Origin: Escherichia phage slur14
Length of the DNA stretch: 64,000 nt
Sequence record: NC_028448.1
Strand: one strand, 5' to 3'
Shown: in pieces, positions 971 to 4,168 of the stretch
Layout of the letters: every line of letters starts with the position of its first letter
Numbering within the stretch: the first letter of the stretch is position 1
Translations under genes and position numbers: made by a program
The notes under the pieces: generated by a model
Seen by the model: the letters and a program-made list of their open reading frames with translations, nothing else
The model's database searches: none
Told to the model about the DNA's origin: nothing

Positions 971-1173
971 GTAACCTTTAAGCAATATTCTTCTACATGT
1001 TGTTTACGACCTTTCTTATCAATAAAGGTATATTCAACGAATGTTCCAATGTAGTCTTTATCTACATCATGTGGACTATTAATTGGACATTTAGTACGGC
1101 AAATGCGTTCCCATTGACGAATAATTACTGCCTTATTCTTTGGGTCATACGGATGTGGATAATGTATATTCAT
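961..1173 (-). CDS. hypothetical protein
   Basis: ORF-track 961..1188 begins at TTG; first ATG at 1173 (MNIHYPHPYD...); ATGA overlap with upstream gene. Confidence 0.5.
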   Translation of the reverse strand: MNIHYPHPYDPKNKAVIIRQWERICRTKCPINSPHDVDKDYIGTFVEYTFIDKKGRKQHVEEYCLKVTWL

Positions 1174-1637
1174 AATAACGGTTCCCAATCAACAATCACA
1201 ATTTCTAATTTAGAGGAATATGTATCTAAAATCCCCTCAATAATATCCCAGTTCCCTTTACCTATGCCTGCACCAATCCTAGGCATATAGATTGTAGGTT
1301 TAATCAGTTTATTTTCACCAAACTCATTTAATTCTAACATACAATTCATTAAAGCGGAATACTCAAAATTTGGCCCCGGTTGAAATTGAGTATAAAGATT
1401 GAAGCAGTAAGCTTTATGAGTCCTAAAGTATTTTTCATAGACTGAGTAAGAACCGAGTTTAGTTACATCGCCCCATTCTGTCTGTAATTTATCAGCTTCC
1501 AAAATTTTAGGGAAAGCTTTAGTTAATTGACCTGCGACTCCAGCTTTCATCGTGTGAAAACAATTACATCCATGCGCAATATTTTTACCTTCAGCGAAAA
1601 GGGCGACAATATCGCCCTTGATATATTTTACAATCAT
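1170..1637 (-). CDS. macro-domain-like protein (ADP-ribose binding/processing fold), T4 tk.4 position
   Basis: 155 aa; N-terminal GDIV..IAHGCNC..AGVAG and C-terminal YMPRIGAGIGKG align by eye with the macro-domain pattern GDIT..IVNAAN..GGGV / FPAIStGvyG. Confidence 0.55.
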   Translation of the reverse strand: MIVKYIKGDIVALFAEGKNIAHGCNCFHTMKAGVAGQLTKAFPKILEADKLQTEWGDVTKLGSYSVYEKYFRTHKAYCFNLYTQFQPGPNFEYSALMNCMLELNEFGENKLIKPTIYMPRIGAGIGKGNWDIIEGILDTYSSKLEIVIVDWEPLL

Positions 1638-1981
1638 CTAGTACTCAATCCTCGATTATAAGAATCTACCAAACGGTCAACCATTGAATGACAAGCGGCT
1701 TTATCTTTTTCCTCCGCAACTGAACATTCTAAGGTATTCCACTTTTTAGCATATCGTTTTAACAATGTATCATTTTTGTATCTGCTTGATTTATCTCTTT
1801 CTCCGTCTTTATATGCATATATTAATTTCTGCGCAAATTCAGCTTGGCATGCTTTATTTTTCCCGCAATAATCCGCTGCAGTACGGTTTACATACTCTCT
1901 AATTTCAGTATATGATGTATCTGCTAACGCAGAAGCAGAAAATGAAATTAATCCTATACATAAAACCAAAATTTTAGTCAT
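1634..1981 (-). CDS. small exported protein (position and length of T4 vs)
   Basis: 115 aa; N-terminal signal peptide MTKILVLCIGLISFSASALA; ATGA overlap with downstream ORF. Confidence 0.5.
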   Translation of the reverse strand: MTKILVLCIGLISFSASALADTSYTEIREYVNRTAADYCGKNKACQAEFAQKLIYAYKDGERDKSSRYKNDTLLKRYAKKWNTLECSVAEEKDKAACHSMVDRLVDSYNRGLSTR

Positions 1982-2519
1982 TTACTATTTCCAAAAGTTT
2001 ATTATTTTTAAGGTAATTAGCCTTTTCTAGGACTTCAGAAGCATATTTAGAACCAGCTTTAACATTCCATCCCGAATTATAAGAGGATATTGCTTTTCTT
2101 ATATCGCCCTTATGTATATTTAACCAATAAGAAAGTTCAATGTACGCCCAGGAAGCTGAATTGGATCGTTTATTCAACATTCTTTTTATTTCAGCATCGG
2201 TCATATTATAACCAAGTTCCTTAACTCTCGCTCGCATAGTAGGCAAATAATTTTGGAACATTCCGTAGGCGTGATGCTTTGGTTTAGATTTTAAATTAAC
2301 TCCGCCAGAGCTTTCTTGCCATAAAATGGCTGCCATTATATGACCTAATCCGCTCTTGTGGATATTTTTGTGTGTTTTATATTTTCCATCCTTAGAAAAT
2401 TGTTCCCCGAATTGATACGCGTAACGCATGTTATCGAGTTGGACATTACTGAAAGTATGCTCGGAGCTATGCGCCATCATTGAAATGGCCAATAGACCAG
2501 CGAGTAGTGCTTTTCTCAT
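1974..2519 (-). CDS. exported lytic transglycosylase (SLT domain), T4 vs.1 position
   Basis: 181 aa; signal peptide MRKALLAGLLAISMMAHS; SLT family-1 motifs ES (LWQESSGG), GMFQ, SYNSG. Confidence 0.75.
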   Translation of the reverse strand: MRKALLAGLLAISMMAHSSEHTFSNVQLDNMRYAYQFGEQFSKDGKYKTHKNIHKSGLGHIMAAILWQESSGGVNLKSKPKHHAYGMFQNYLPTMRARVKELGYNMTDAEIKRMLNKRSNSASWAYIELSYWLNIHKGDIRKAISSYNSGWNVKAGSKYASEVLEKANYLKNNKLLEIVND

Positions 2520-2526
2520 GCTTACC

Positions 2527-2988
2527 TCATTGAGTTTTAATTACTGCTTTAGAAGCCTTTCCTGGTAAACGACGACTGTTAATAATTGCCATCCTACATT
2601 GAAGTGACGGGTCTTTGAACTTCGCGTTAGGTTTACAAACTGTAAATCCAAGCCAAAGATTTCCATCTGTGATTTCTAAACGTCCAGGACGATATTCAAC
2701 CCCATCAATAAAATCCTCGTCAATGTCAGGGCGCGGAGGCATACTCAGGAATTCATTAACTTCTAAAACATGGTCTTTTATTTTATGGAATAATTCAAAA
2801 ACATATGTCTCGTCAATTTCCCGTTGAATTGCACGATCAAGAAGATGCTGAGAATATTTTAGATGAAACGATGAGACCCCTGCTGCTTTTGATGCCTCAC
2901 GAATCTCATTGTTAATTTGACGAAACTCCGACTCAAAGTGACGACGAAGCTTATTTCGACGGATAAAAACTTCTGTATTGATAGTCAT
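2527..2988 (-). CDS. regB: RegB site-specific endoribonuclease
   Basis: 153 aa, MTINTEVFIRRNKLRRHFESEFRQ...; length and sequence match T4 RegB as recalled; canonical early promoter immediately upstream. Confidence 0.9.
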   Translation of the reverse strand: MTINTEVFIRRNKLRRHFESEFRQINNEIREASKAAGVSSFHLKYSQHLLDRAIQREIDETYVFELFHKIKDHVLEVNEFLSMPPRPDIDEDFIDGVEYRPGRLEITDGNLWLGFTVCKPNAKFKDPSLQCRMAIINSRRLPGKASKAVIKTQ

Positions 2989-3015
2989 GTTATTCTCCTC
3001 TTAACTGATAGAAAA

Positions 3016-3045
3016 ATTATACCACAGTCAAGAGGAAAAGTAAAC
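3016..3045 (-). promoter_or_regulatory. T4-type early promoter (-35 GTTTAC, extended -10 TGgTATAAT) for regB
   Basis: Minus strand reads GTTTAC-18nt-TATAAT ending about 30 nt upstream of the regB ATG. Confidence 0.7.
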
Positions 3046-3047
3046 AG

Positions 3048-3326
3048 TTATTCTTTAAATCTAATCAATTTATTCATAGACTTTGAAACTTCTGCACGAA
3101 CCTCATGTAGATTTTTGAGCTGTTCAAGACGCTGCTCATAGTAAGCAATTTCATCTTCTTCGAGACAGTCCTGTGAATCTTCTTTAAGATAACGTGCATA
3201 GTCCTGGAAAGCGTTACGAACTACTTCCTGGAAGTCATCAAGACTTTGAATTTTCTTAGGAGCAACAGATACACGACGAGGGGCAGTATAATACTCATAA
3301 CCAAACCCTGCGCTTAATTGAGCCAT
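3048..3326 (-). CDS. hypothetical protein (T4 vs.3 position)
   Basis: ORF-track 3048..3368 starts at GTG; ATG at 3326 preceded by GAGGAAA RBS ([13 protein letters not shown]...). Confidence 0.5.
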
Positions 3327-3592
3327 TAATATTTTTCCTCTGGTTGGAACACAGCACGACAAGCCCACATACTGGCTTCTTTGAGTTTCGTTTTAGCAAT
3401 AGTTAACTGATCGAGGCTTTCGGCGTAATTCTTCGCGAGTTCATCATCTTCACAGCTATCAAATGCTTCCCAAAATTCATCGTATAAAGCATCAAAGATA
3501 AGTCCTAAACGAACTTCAGCGTCTTTAATAGCATTTACTTTACCGATTTTTTCGTCGGTATGTGGCTTATAACCTTTAATATCTTCAATCAT
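3326..3592 (-). CDS. hypothetical acidic protein (T4 vs.4 position)
   Basis: ORF-track 3326..3628 starts at TTG; ATG at 3592 preceded by GAGGAAG RBS. Confidence 0.5.
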
Positions 3593-3806
3593 ATTTGACT
3601 TCCTCACCAGTACATAAATCGTATTCAACTAAACGAATAGGTTCATGAATGCCATATCCTTGAACAGAAATTTCTGTAGTAGGATAAATTCCATTAATAT
3701 CACCCATGTTCCATGCTTCGTTAAATTGCTGTTCGCCTGAATTACTAAACCATTCGGCGAAAGCATTTAGCACATCTTTAGAACCTTCAATAATTATCTT
3801 TGCCAT
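3585..3806 (-). CDS. hypothetical protein (T4 vs.5 position)
   Basis: 73-aa ORF with ATG start; 1-nt overlap with the upstream stop. Confidence 0.5.
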   Translation of the reverse strand: MAKIIIEGSKDVLNAFAEWFSNSGEQQFNEAWNMGDINGIYPTTEISVQGYGIHEPIRLVEYDLCTGEEVKYD

Positions 3807-4168
3807 TACAAACTCTCAGTAAAGGTACGAGCGATAACGTCGCGCTGCTGTTCCGGAGTCAGAGAGTTAAAGCGAACTGCATAACCGGATACACGGATGG
3901 TCAGCTGCGGATATTTTTCCGGATGCTTAACTGCATCTTCCAGAGTTTCACGACGCAGAACGTTAACGTTCAGGTGTTGACCACCTTCAATTTTAACTGT
4001 AGGCTGTTGCTCAATTTCAATTTCACGGGCATGCAAACCGTAGAAAATTTCTGGGTCTACAAAAGAGTCCTCTTTAAAGGTTTTAGAGACAATAATTCGT
4101 GCTTGAATACCATCTTCAAAATAAATAGTACCTTTATGTGTGCCTTCAAGAATTTGATATGCTTTCAT
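3806..4168 (-). CDS. autonomous glycyl-radical cofactor, GrcA/YfiD-like (T4 vs.6 position)
   Basis: 120 aa; C-terminal half ...[60 protein letters not shown] matches the glycyl-radical domain of E. coli GrcA / PFL C-terminus as recalled. Confidence 0.85.

What the first reader, a model, noticed from the sequence alone, without database searches (positions are those of the whole stretch)
1634..2519. Adjacent early genes for two exported proteins, one a soluble lytic transglycosylase
ORF 1974..2519 has a signal peptide and the three SLT family-1 motifs (ES, GMFQ, SYNSG), and the overlapping upstream ORF 1634..1981 also has a cleavable signal peptide. This is a periplasmic murein-cleaving activity separate from the e lysozyme and the gp5 tail lysozyme, and it is expressed early. 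An early periplasmic transglycosylase could remodel peptidoglycan during infection rather than take part in lysis.
Basis: partly seen in the sequence, partly recalled or inferred. Interest (0 to 1): 0.35.

Follow-up and report, generated by a model that had tools for sequence, protein, structure and literature searches.

The report
T4 vs.1–vs exported gene pair
These are the T4 genes vs.1 and vs: a known but untested cell-wall-cutting enzyme gene, followed almost always by a small exported protein that databases label as a modifier of a cytoplasmic tRNA synthetase, a label that fits poorly with its export signal.

Summary
The window is a T4-type phage, 100% identical to Escherichia phage slur03. 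Both ORFs lie on the minus strand, so 1634..1981 is downstream of 1974..2519, not upstream.

ORF 1974..2519 is T4 vs.1. It passes the Pfam SLT threshold, has an invariant Glu69 that aligns with the catalytic Glu of MltE and Slt70, and has a confident lysozyme-like model. Its SLT similarity was published in 2006, so that part is not new.

New here:
- In 49 of 50 distinct viral loci with a vs.1 relative, the next ORF (gap −8 to +3 nt) is a Vs-family protein.
- Those Vs proteins have a signal peptide (a lipoprotein box in five loci), and all but two short ORFs keep four Cys.
- Published T4 screens show fitness costs for both genes.

Best reading: an early-transcribed, translationally coupled periplasmic module, a lytic transglycosylase plus an 11-kDa disulfide-stapled four-helix partner. 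Enzyme activity, export and the interaction are all untested. The cytoplasmic synthetase label for Vs conflicts with its predicted export, and I could not resolve this.

The parts
3016..3044 (-). T4-type early promoter upstream of regB (gTTTACt, 17-nt spacer, TGgTATAAT). It is the likely start of the regB-vs.1-vs-tk.4 transcript.
   Evidence: Best sigma-70-like match on the minus strand in 1000..3600: 10 of 12 positions, with an extended -10 TG. Sequence read. No MotA box or late promoter lies downstream of it. The promoter count for the region as a whole is no higher than in shuffles, so this rests on position and on the T4 consensus.
2527..2988 (-). regB endoribonuclease gene. Context only: the first gene of the unit.
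   Evidence: Pfam REGB_T4, E = 1.4e-68. Annotated as regB in slur03 and T4.
1974..2519 (-). vs.1: 181-aa precursor of an exported GH23/SLT-family lytic transglycosylase. The predicted mature protein is 163 aa, 18.8 kDa, pI 9.7, with no Cys.
   Evidence: Pfam SLT 25.1 bits, above the 21.3 cut-off. phrog_600 E = 2e-68. AF2 mean pLDDT 87.8. Foldseek top hits are MltD, Slt, a GH23 chitinase and the phi6 lysin. 100% identical to T4 ORF 61.4.
2466..2519 (-). vs.1 signal peptide, residues 1-18 (MRKALLAGLLAISMMAHS|SE).
   Evidence: Heuristic n/h/c scan. Kept in 75 of 77 homologues. AF2 pLDDT is about 50 over residues 1-20.
2313..2315 (-). Codon of the predicted catalytic Glu69 (WQES motif).
   Evidence: Invariant in 25 diverse homologues. 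hhalign places it on MltE Glu64 and on the Slt70 RQES Glu. An xES motif is also kept in the Felixounavirus, Ackermannviridae and Aeromonas-phage relatives.
2058..2339 (-). SLT (GH23) core, residues 61-154, containing ES, GMFQ and SYNSG.
   Evidence: Extent of the Pfam match. Invariant columns G86, F88, Q89, Y147, N148, G150.
1974..1981 (-). 8-nt overlap ATGACTAA: the vs start codon lies inside the end of vs.1 (translational coupling).
   Evidence: Sequence read. The same tight junction (gap -8 to +3 nt) occurs in 49 of 49 paired loci.
1634..1981 (-). vs: 115-aa precursor of a small exported four-helix protein. The predicted mature protein is 95 aa, 11.0 kDa, with 4 Cys. It is annotated 'valyl-tRNA synthetase modifier'.
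   Evidence: phrog_1256 E = 1.6e-39. Annotated vs in T4 and slur03. AF2 gives four helices over 22-112, with pLDDT about 80 for residues 21-30 and 86-97 for the later 10-residue blocks. No fold match in the PDB, and only its own family in BFVD.
1922..1981 (-). vs signal peptide, residues 1-20 (MTKILVLCIGLISFSASALA|DT).
   Evidence: Heuristic scan. Kept in 12 of 12 full-length homologues and in 49 loci, five of which carry a lipobox LSGC instead. AF2 pLDDT is below 50 over 1-20.
1170..1637 (-). tk.4 macro-domain gene. Context only: the next gene, with an ATGA overlap onto the vs stop codon.
   Evidence: Pfam Macro E = 1.9e-5. Overlap read. T4 tk.4 has been named AdfM, an anti-DarTG2 factor, in 10.1101/2025.11.20.689424.

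Best explanation
The two ORFs are the orthologues of T4 vs.1 and vs. They work as one early-transcribed, translationally coupled module that delivers two proteins to the periplasm by the Sec pathway.

Vs.1 is a GH23/SLT-family lytic transglycosylase. It would cut the glycan strands of the host sacculus using a single catalytic Glu (Glu69).

Vs is an 11-kDa four-helix protein. Each of its two helical hairpins is predicted to be closed by a disulfide (Cys39-Cys45 and Cys86-Cys97). It is made in fixed proportion to Vs.1 and acts with it in the envelope. Most likely it is a bound regulator or partner that keeps the enzyme's activity limited or directed, so that the wall is altered before lysis without bursting the cell.

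Shown here:
- gene identity;
- signal-peptide-like N-termini and their conservation;
- SLT motifs and fold;
- the near-obligate vs.1-to-vs adjacency.

Taken from published T4 data: early transcription, and fitness costs for both genes.

Inferred, not shown:
- actual export;
- enzymatic activity;
- disulfide formation;
- a physical Vs.1-Vs interaction, and its sign (inhibitor or activator).
For: Identity.
- The region is 100% identical to slur03 and 97.9-99.6% identical to the other listed T4-type records.
- The ORFs correspond to T4p112 (vs.1) and T4p111 (vs).

Vs.1 as an enzyme.
- Pfam SLT is above the gathering score.
- Glu69, GxFQ and YNxG are invariant.
- Glu69 aligns to MltE Glu64 and to the Slt70 catalytic Glu.
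- The AF2 model has pLDDT 87.8. Its best PDB matches are lytic transglycosylases MltD and Slt, a GH23 chitinase and the phi6 lysin, with Foldseek probability 0.97-1.0 for the MltD, Slt and chitinase entries and 0.54-0.85 for the phi6 lysin.

Export.
- These are the only 2 of 122 window ORFs that pass the signal-peptide filter.
- The feature is conserved while the signal sequences diverge.
- Vs keeps 4 Cys in 47 of 49 loci; the two exceptions are shorter ORFs of 85 and 65 aa.
- Five Vs orthologues have a lipoprotein box LSGC, which only makes sense for an exported protein.
- Full-length His-tagged Vs is insoluble in the E. coli cytoplasm.

Coupling.
- In 49 of 50 distinct loci with a vs.1 relative, down to 39% identity and including the vs.1 relative of Pseudomonas phage PspYZU05, the next ORF (gap -8 to +3 nt) is a Vs-family protein.
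- Separately, annotated records of Klebsiella, Acinetobacter and Pseudomonas phages show the same arrangement.
- Flanking genes differ between these phages.

Timing.
- An early promoter lies before regB, with no middle or late promoter inside the unit.
- T4 omics class both genes as early RNA / middle protein, and both proteins were detected.

Shared phenotype in T4.
- Transposon read counts in LB are 26.6 for vs and 22.6 for vs.1, against 178.6-652.1 for the neighbours regB, tk.4 and vs.3.
- LB to M9-glucose: vs log2FC -2.19 (adj. p = 0); vs.1 -0.87 (p = 0.0055).
- On clinical strain CFE299: vs.1 -1.20 (adj. p = 0.015); vs -1.04.
- CRISPRi-ART classes vs.1 as 'Semi-Fit'.
Against: - No experiment in the accessible literature shows export, muralytic activity or a Vs-Vs.1 complex.
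- Vs is annotated as the factor that binds cytoplasmic ValRS. From memory, unverified here: classical vs mutants had in vivo phenotypes on valS(ts) hosts, which would require a cytoplasmic product.
- The SLT match is modest: 25 bits for Pfam, Foldseek E about 6e-3 with TM about 0.45-0.54, and no significant PDB sequence or profile hit.
- Signal peptides were judged with a home-made heuristic, not SignalP.
- The shared transposon phenotype could partly be polarity of vs.1 insertions on vs.
- vs.1 relatives exist without a recognisable vs: Aeromonas phage 31, Ackermannviridae and Felixounavirus. The partner is therefore not indispensable to the enzyme.
- The Vs fold resembles no known lysozyme or transglycosylase inhibitor.
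Confidence: 0.55

Rival explanations
1. The annotation is right and complete. Vs is the cytoplasmic 'tau' factor that binds host valyl-tRNA synthetase. Its hydrophobic N-terminus is not a working export signal, or only part of the protein is exported. Its position next to vs.1 is a matter of genome packing, not function.
For: - The annotation is universal.
- Published citations say the factor binds ValRS and changes its properties (Muller and Marchin 1975 and 1977, as cited in PMC8076793).
- The Delta-vs plaque defect in minimal medium was read this way by its authors.
- From memory: classical vs mutants were defined by phenotypes on valS(ts) hosts, and tau was about 10 kDa.
Against: - The Sec-type signal peptide is conserved across the whole family.
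- Four conserved Cys sit in hairpin-staple positions.
- Five orthologues have a lipobox.
- The gene sits immediately after vs.1 in 49 of 50 loci, including in phages of Acinetobacter and Pseudomonas.
- The only Met codons are M1 and M100, so no internal start could give a cytoplasmic 10-kDa form.
- A 10-kDa tau fits the cleaved 11.0-kDa form better than the 13.1-kDa precursor, and cleavage implies export.
- I could not retrieve the papers that tie the genetic vs locus to this ORF. The 1986 sequence record calls it only 'ORF 60.9'.
Confidence: 0.25
2. Vs.1 is an auxiliary lysis enzyme. It helps the e endolysin degrade the wall at the end of infection, as Nolan et al. suggested ('some role in cell lysis').
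For: - It has a muralytic fold and motifs.
- Felixounavirus relatives are annotated 'lysin'.
- The published suggestion is in PMC1524935.
- The fitness cost is larger where lawns grow slowly.
Against: - Early transcription plus its own signal peptide would place it in the periplasm long before the holin fires.
- It is not next to t, e or the spanin genes.
- Established knowledge, from memory: T4 e mutants do not lyse, so Vs.1 cannot lyse the cell by itself.
- In Felixounavirus the gene sits after rIIA-rIIB, about 1 kb upstream of the i-spanin/o-spanin pair and separated from it by a polynucleotide-kinase gene and a hypothetical ORF, so it is near but not inside the lysis genes there.
Confidence: 0.15
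3. The pair is an envelope defence or exclusion device, like Spackle and Imm. Vs would block muralytic enzymes of superinfecting phages (or of the host), and Vs.1 would alter the wall to hinder secondary infection.
For: - Vs is a small, helical, disulfide-containing periplasmic protein made early, the same general description as the T4 Spackle inhibitor of gp5 lysozyme (from memory).
- In Acinetobacter phage Mokit the pair is followed by two more ORFs with export-type N-termini (one signal peptide, one possible membrane anchor) and then the rI antiholin gene.
- vs.1 insertions are significantly depleted on a clinical strain.
Against: - No fold similarity to Spackle or any known inhibitor.
- The fitness cost appears in single-phage screens without deliberate superinfection.
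- The idea does not explain why an inhibitor must be coupled to a transglycosylase.
Confidence: 0.1

Closest known systems
Bacteriophage T4 genes vs.1 (T4p112, ORF 61.4) and vs (T4p111, ORF 60.9)
   Same: Vs.1 is 100% identical to the T4 protein. The best vs match in the phage collection is 100% (phage PBM-1), and many T4-type records score 97.4-99.1%; identity to T4 Vs itself was not measured. Same gene order regB-vs.1-vs-tk.4 and the same 8-nt overlap.
   Different: Nothing material. This is another Tequatrovirus copy of the same genes.
Family 1 lytic transglycosylases (GH23 / Pfam SLT): E. coli Slt70 and MltE, P. aeruginosa MltD and Slt
   Same: Lysozyme-like helical fold; a catalytic Glu in an E-S motif; GLMQ-like and AYNxG motifs; periplasmic location.
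   Different: - Very divergent: 13-16% identity to the MltD, Slt and GH23-chitinase structures, TM 0.44-0.54, and no significant sequence hit in the PDB.
- Single domain with its own about 40-residue N-terminal extension.
- Phage-encoded and early.
- Activity untested.
Virion-associated or lysis transglycosylases of phages (T7 gp16 N-terminal domain, phi6 P5 lysin)
   Same: They appear among the structural matches. Phage-encoded GH23-type enzymes.
   Different: Those travel in the virion or act at lysis. Vs.1 is made early with a cleavable signal peptide and is exported by the host Sec system.
T4 Spackle (gene sp/61.3), periplasmic inhibitor of gp5 lysozyme; periplasmic lysozyme or transglycosylase inhibitors such as Ivy
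   Same: Functional analogy only: small, early, signal-peptide-bearing, disulfide-containing periplasmic proteins that bind a muralytic enzyme (from memory).
   Different: No sequence or fold similarity was found for Vs. Binding of Vs to Vs.1 is not demonstrated.
Secretion-system transglycosylases controlled by a partner protein (for example EtgA-EscI, MltE-TssM)
   Same: A concept recalled from memory: a transglycosylase whose activity is switched or localised by a specific partner.
   Different: No homology, and no secretion apparatus here. This is a lead, not a test.

Membership tests
Pfam SLT (PF01464) / GH23 family-1 lytic transglycosylases | Sequence score above the curated family threshold | tested here: met
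   25.1 bits against a cut-off of 21.3, E = 1.4e-5, residues 61-154. The margin is small.
Pfam SLT (PF01464) / GH23 family-1 lytic transglycosylases | Catalytic Glu in the E-S motif, conserved and alignable to a proven catalytic Glu | tested here: met
   Glu69 is invariant in 25 homologues. It aligns to MltE Glu64 and to Slt70 precursor Glu505, which is mature Glu478. The hhalign E-values are themselves weak (0.12-0.13).
Pfam SLT (PF01464) / GH23 family-1 lytic transglycosylases | Motifs II (GLMQ-like) and III (AYNxG) | tested here: met
   GMFQ 86-89 and SYNSG 146-150. G86, F88, Q89, Y147, N148 and G150 are invariant. YNAG is kept in all 23 diverse loci and GxFQN in 22 of 23; L061 has GPYQN.
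Pfam SLT (PF01464) / GH23 family-1 lytic transglycosylases | Lysozyme-like alpha-helical fold | tested here: met
   AF2 pLDDT 87.8. The top Foldseek PDB hits are all GH23 or lysozyme-superfamily proteins, but with E only 6e-3 to 0.3 and TM about 0.45-0.54.
Pfam SLT (PF01464) / GH23 family-1 lytic transglycosylases | Non-hydrolytic cleavage giving 1,6-anhydroMurNAc ends | not testable with these tools
   Needs purified mature Vs.1 on sacculi with muropeptide analysis.
Sec-exported (signal peptidase I) periplasmic proteins | Positively charged n-region, hydrophobic h-region of at least 10 residues, small residues at -3/-1 | tested here: met
   Both ORFs pass, as the only 2 of 122 in the window. 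The feature is conserved in homologues. This is a heuristic; SignalP was not available.
Sec-exported (signal peptidase I) periplasmic proteins | Demonstrated cleavage and periplasmic location | not testable with these tools
   Needs cell fractionation, N-terminal mass spectrometry or PhoA fusions.
T4 Vs family (PF26829 / phrog_1256, 'valyl-tRNA synthetase modifier') | Sequence membership | tested here: met
   phrog_1256 E = 1.6e-39. All homologues carry PF26829.
T4 Vs family (PF26829 / phrog_1256, 'valyl-tRNA synthetase modifier') | Cytoplasmic location, as required to bind ValRS in vivo | tested here: not met
   By prediction only. A signal peptide or lipobox is present throughout the family, and four conserved Cys are kept in 47 of 49 loci.
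T4 Vs family (PF26829 / phrog_1256, 'valyl-tRNA synthetase modifier') | Binding to and modification of valyl-tRNA synthetase | not testable with these tools
   The original biochemical and mapping papers could not be retrieved.
Periplasmic inhibitors of muralytic enzymes (Spackle, Ivy, PliC/MliC, PliG) | Fold or sequence similarity to a known inhibitor | tested here: not met
   Foldseek PDB best E = 2.1, with nothing relevant. BFVD matches only the Vs family itself. phmmer against the PDB found nothing.

The most novel reading that the evidence does not exclude
The protein labelled 'valyl-tRNA synthetase modifier' in T4, and by propagation in hundreds of phage genomes including phages of Acinetobacter and Pseudomonas, is really the secreted, disulfide-bonded partner of a periplasmic lytic transglycosylase. 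On this reading the ValRS label is one of three things:
- a mis-assignment of the genetic vs locus to ORF 60.9;
- an association formed only after cell breakage;
- a minor side activity.

The recently reported requirement for vs in minimal medium would then be a cell-envelope phenotype, not a translation phenotype.
Probability: 0.35. Interest if true: 0.6.

Novelty: already known. Interest (0 to 1): 0.35.

Why it matters
The finding as stated adds little. It describes T4 genes catalogued since 1986, and the SLT similarity of vs.1 has been in print since at least 2006.

The follow-up does give a concrete, testable lead in the best-studied phage.
- Two genome-wide screens from 2025 flag these genes. 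CRISPRi-ART calls vs.1 'Semi-Fit' and of unknown function, and HIDEN-SEQ finds vs to be the gene most depleted in minimal medium.
- The HIDEN-SEQ authors explain the vs result through valyl-tRNA synthetase.
- The sequence evidence says instead that vs and vs.1 are an almost inseparable pair of exported proteins.

If that is right, three things follow:
- T4 has an unstudied early periplasmic wall-modifying module.
- A widely propagated annotation is misleading.
- A few simple experiments (cell fractionation, clean single and double deletions, enzyme assays with and without Vs) would settle it.

Tried and rejected
- **PDB sequence searches.** phmmer of Vs.1 and of Vs found nothing meaningful. 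A profile of 25 Vs.1 homologues gave only a g-type lysozyme at E = 0.73.
- **NCBIfam.** No hit for either protein.
- **Local Pfam copy.** It gave no family for Vs, only a chance Cauli_AT match at E = 0.08, although the protein database tags the family PF26829.
- **Fold searches for Vs.** Nothing in the PDB (best E = 2.1). Only its own family in BFVD, plus a weak 'lipoprotein' hit at E = 0.18. I therefore dropped the idea that Vs belongs to a known inhibitor fold.
- **Scan of 1.84 billion representative proteins with the Vs profile.** Only 8 hits. This under-counted the family, because the divergent B-type members score weakly against the A-type profile. They were recovered by looking directly downstream of vs.1.
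- **Aeromonas phage 31.** I tested whether the ORFs downstream of vs.1 are Vs-like. They are not (E above 1); one is a predicted lipoprotein.
- **Other promoters.** I looked for MotA-box middle promoters and late promoters inside the unit and found none.
- **Primary literature.** I tried to retrieve Miller 2003, Muller and Marchin 1975 and the 1977 JBC paper. None is held. The basis for equating the genetic vs locus with this ORF could not be checked.
- **Complex prediction.** A prediction of mature Vs.1 plus Vs was not possible.
Full report
**What the region is**

Positions 1000-3500 of the window are 100% identical to Escherichia phage slur03 and 97.9-99.6% identical to the other listed T4-type (Tequatrovirus) records.

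All genes here lie on the minus strand. In the direction of transcription the order is:
- regB (2988..2527)
- vs.1 (2519..1974)
- vs (1981..1634)
- tk.4 (1637..1170)

The finding's larger ORF is T4 vs.1. It is 100% identical to 'ORF 61.4' of the 1986 T4 sequence record. The smaller ORF is the classical T4 gene vs, annotated 'valyl tRNA synthetase modifier'.

**Check of the observation**

The three motifs are present as described: WQE69S, G86MFQ89 and S146YNSG150. Evidence that Vs.1 is an SLT-type enzyme:
- Pfam SLT is matched above the curated threshold, though not by much: 25.1 against 21.3 bits, E = 1.4e-5.
- In an alignment of 25 homologues down to 41% identity, E69, G86, F88, Q89, Y147, N148 and G150 are invariant. 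So are Y159 and V163 of a fourth SLT-like motif.
- Profile comparison places Glu69 on Glu64 of E. coli MltE and on the RQES glutamate of Slt70 (precursor 505, mature 478). The E-values of these comparisons are weak, at 0.12-0.13.
- An AlphaFold model built on the alignment is confident: mean pLDDT 87.8, low only over residues 1-20 and the last few residues.
- Its best PDB matches are all from the GH23/lysozyme superfamily: MltD and Slt of P. aeruginosa, a GH23 chitinase, the phi6 lysin and T7 core protein. The E-values are 6e-3 to 0.5 and TM is about 0.45-0.54.
- Plain sequence or profile searches of the PDB find nothing significant.

Vs.1 is therefore a real but very divergent member of the SLT fold.

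SignalP was not available, so I wrote a simple filter: net positive n-region, uncharged hydrophobic stretch of at least 10 residues, and small residues at -3/-1.
- Of 122 ATG-ORFs of at least 60 aa in the 64-kb window, only these two pass.
- Predicted cleavage gives a mature Vs.1 of 163 aa (18.8 kDa, pI 9.7, no Cys) and a mature Vs of 95 aa (11.0 kDa, four Cys).
- The signal-like N-terminus is kept in 75 of 77 Vs.1 homologues; the two exceptions are truncated. It is kept in 12 of 12 full-length Vs homologues, although the actual residues vary freely. That pattern is expected of a working signal peptide.

**Timing**

- The best sigma-70-type site on the minus strand lies just upstream of regB. 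It has the T4 early-promoter form (GTTTAC, 17-nt spacer, TGgTATAAT).
- No MotA box or late promoter lies between it and the end of vs.
- vs.1 has a good Shine-Dalgarno sequence (GAGG).
- vs starts within the vs.1 stop region, and tk.4 overlaps the vs stop codon by ATGA.
- In T4 itself, time-resolved RNA-seq and proteomics class both vs.1 and vs as 'early RNA / middle protein', and both proteins were detected (PMC9697503 supplements).

'Expressed early' is therefore supported.

**What was already known**

Nolan et al. 2006 (PMC1524935) reported that vs.1 orthologues in six T4-like genomes match the SLT domain. They suggested 'some role in cell lysis' and cited earlier PSI-BLAST matches for T4 vs.1. 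Several GenBank records already call it 'SLT domain-containing protein'. The core of the finding is thus not new. I found no paper in the searchable library that tests vs.1 or mentions a signal peptide on Vs.

**New observation 1: vs.1 and vs are a nearly obligate pair**

A direct tblastn search suggested that vs is much rarer than vs.1: 794 against 2044 phage records. This turned out to be a sensitivity problem.
- In Klebsiella phage Roth51, Acinetobacter phage Mokit and Pseudomonas phage PspYZU05, the ORF directly after vs.1 is a divergent Vs relative. HMM E-values are 3e-30, 2.5e-16 and 7.5e-14.
- I fetched 50 distinct viral-contig loci encoding a Vs.1 relative at 31-100% identity and scanned the downstream ORFs with a Vs profile.
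- In 49 of the 50, the very next ORF is a Vs-family protein, with a gap of -8 to +3 nt.
- Every one has a signal-type N-terminus.
- 47 have four Cys beyond residue 25. The other two are shorter ORFs of 85 and 65 aa.
- Five carry a lipoprotein box (LSGC) in place of the signal-peptidase-I site.

The family has two sequence subtypes and evolves faster than Vs.1: 23-57% identity where Vs.1 is 43-83%. All members found are 61-122 aa; the full-length ones are about 95-122 aa. All carry PF26829, and those with a long contig on record come from contigs of T4-like genome size.

Flanking genes differ between these phages. In Mokit, a homing endonuclease replaces regB, and further ORFs with export-type N-termini plus rI follow vs. 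The junction itself is what is conserved.

More distant Vs.1 relatives keep the signal peptide and the xES motif but lack a recognisable Vs next door. These are in Aeromonas phage 31, Ackermannviridae (Det7) and Felixounavirus.

**New observation 2: what Vs looks like**

The AlphaFold model gives four helices (22-39, 43-63, 70-86, 91-112). pLDDT is about 80 for residues 21-30 and 86-97 in the later 10-residue blocks, and below 50 for residues 1-20. Cys39/Cys45 flank the first helix-loop-helix turn and Cys86/Cys97 the second. That is the arrangement expected for two disulfide staples; this is an inference, as I could not measure distances. The fold matches nothing in the PDB (best E = 2.1) and only its own family among predicted viral structures.

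**Published functional data that bear on the pair**

- In the T4 transposon screen HIDEN-SEQ (10.1101/2025.11.20.689424), both genes are formally non-essential.
- Their mean insertion read counts in the LB liquid control are 26.6 (vs) and 22.6 (vs.1). The neighbours score 178.6 (regB), 289.6 (tk.4) and 652.1 (vs.3).
- Moving to M9-glucose depletes vs most strongly of all genes: log2FC -2.19, adjusted p = 0. It also depletes vs.1: -0.87, p = 0.0055, adjusted 0.155.
- On clinical strain CFE299, vs.1 is significantly depleted (-1.20, adjusted p = 0.015) and vs follows (-1.04, not significant).
- A clean vs knockout makes poorer plaques on M9-glucose.
- Independently, CRISPRi-ART classes vs.1 as 'Semi-Fit', one of five such T4 genes 'with purely unknown function' (PMC11879866 supplement).

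The parallel behaviour fits a shared function. However, polarity of vs.1 insertions or knock-downs on the coupled vs cannot be excluded.

**The conflict with the annotation**

Vs is said to bind host valyl-tRNA synthetase (Muller and Marchin, as cited in PMC8076793). Valyl-tRNA synthetase is cytoplasmic. Against a purely cytoplasmic role:
- The signal peptide is conserved.
- Some orthologues are lipoproteins.
- The Cys pattern is conserved.
- The gene is coupled to an exported enzyme.
- The family is kept in phages of distant hosts.
- No internal start codon could give a cytoplasmic form; the only Met residues are M1 and M100.
- Full-length His-tagged Vs goes to inclusion bodies in E. coli.

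From memory, and unverified here:
- The factor was sized at about 10 kDa. That fits the cleaved 11.0-kDa form better than the 13.1-kDa precursor.
- The classical vs mutants had in vivo phenotypes on valS(ts) hosts. That argues for a cytoplasmic product of the genetic locus.

I could not retrieve the mapping or biochemical papers, and the 1986 record names the ORF only 'ORF 60.9'. Three possibilities remain open:
- the genetic locus was assigned to the wrong ORF;
- the ValRS association forms when compartments mix on cell breakage;
- a fraction of the precursor stays in the cytoplasm.

**Most likely mechanism**

The early regB transcript carries vs.1 and vs, and ribosomes finishing vs.1 re-initiate on vs. 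Both products are exported by Sec and cleaved. Vs.1 then cuts glycan strands using Glu69. No second acidic residue is conserved between E69 and GMFQ. That is the pattern of transglycosylases rather than goose-type lysozymes, which is an inference. Vs, oxidised in the periplasm, acts with Vs.1.

I lean towards Vs as a bound regulator that limits or directs the enzyme, for two reasons:
- A freely active exported transglycosylase made early would be dangerous. T4 e mutants nevertheless do not lyse (from memory).
- Loss of vs is more harmful in minimal medium than insertions in vs.1.

However, vs.1 loss itself is costly, so Vs is not a mere antidote. My confidence by part:
- both proteins exported: about 0.85;
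- Vs.1 has the SLT fold: about 0.85;
- Vs.1 is an active transglycosylase: about 0.6;
- Vs works with Vs.1: about 0.55;
- Vs acts as an inhibitor rather than an activator: about 0.3.

**Verdict**

The worthwhile residue is the conserved vs.1-vs coupling and the export/ValRS contradiction. Both are cheap to test in T4.

Noticed in passing
window 1170..1637 (-): tk.4 is a macro-domain protein (Pfam Macro, E = 1.9e-5). RefSeq annotates it 'phosphatase', but a 2025 preprint names the T4 orthologue AdfM, an anti-DarTG2 factor that removes ADP-ribose from DNA.
   Followed up: partly
window 3806..4168 (-): vs.6 encodes a 120-aa stand-alone glycyl-radical domain (Pfam Gly_radical, E = 2.5e-18), annotated as a GrcA-like autonomous glycyl radical cofactor. 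It may be a spare part for the phage anaerobic ribonucleotide reductase.
   Followed up: no
L014 (Edwardsiella phage PEi20, NC_028683) 2236..2400 versus L035 3553..3900: The GenBank record annotates vs as a 54-aa fragment that starts 183 nt after vs.1. The copy of what appears to be the same genome (both records are 177,643 bp) has an intact 115-aa ORF with a signal peptide starting directly after vs.1. The annotated start looks wrong.
   Followed up: partly
L012 (Klebsiella phage Roth51) 2363..2755; L013 (Acinetobacter phage Mokit) 2324..2749, 2749..3048 and 3045..3347: In these phages the vs.1-vs pair is followed by another signal-peptide protein of 130-141 aa. The two proteins look related to each other by eye (both end in an NEY.TYK motif), but no alignment was run. 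In Mokit a membrane-anchored ORF and the rI antiholin come next. This is a run of envelope-directed genes of unknown function.
   Followed up: partly
L006 (Aeromonas phage 31) 2656..3096: Between vs.1 and tk.4, where vs sits in T4, this phage has a 146-aa predicted lipoprotein (MKKSIATLIAIGMYGC...) that is not detectably related to Vs. It could be a non-homologous exported replacement.
   Followed up: partly
L008 (Escherichia phage garuso, Felixounavirus) 2501..3049: A 31%-identical Vs.1 relative with a signal peptide and a QES motif is annotated 'putative lysin'. It sits directly after rIIA-rIIB, and the spanin genes lie about 1 kb downstream. The 'lysin' label may be as untested as in T4.
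   Followed up: no
L012 (Klebsiella phage Roth51) 1036..1493 and 1501..2046: regB is split into two annotated CDSs (a frameshift or sequencing error). The Vs.1 orthologue is labelled 'C-type lysozyme/alpha-lactalbumin family protein', which does not match the SLT/GH23 assignment.
   Followed up: no
protein P0130: A 99-aa Vs-family protein is named 'sensor histidine kinase YesM' by its JGI source. This is an evident annotation error.
   Followed up: no
HIDEN-SEQ supplement, LB versus M9 table: In M9-glucose, insertions in nrdA, nrdB and td become less harmful (log2FC +1.4 to +2.3), and regB insertions rise (+1.17). These are medium-dependent shifts unrelated to this finding.
   Followed up: no
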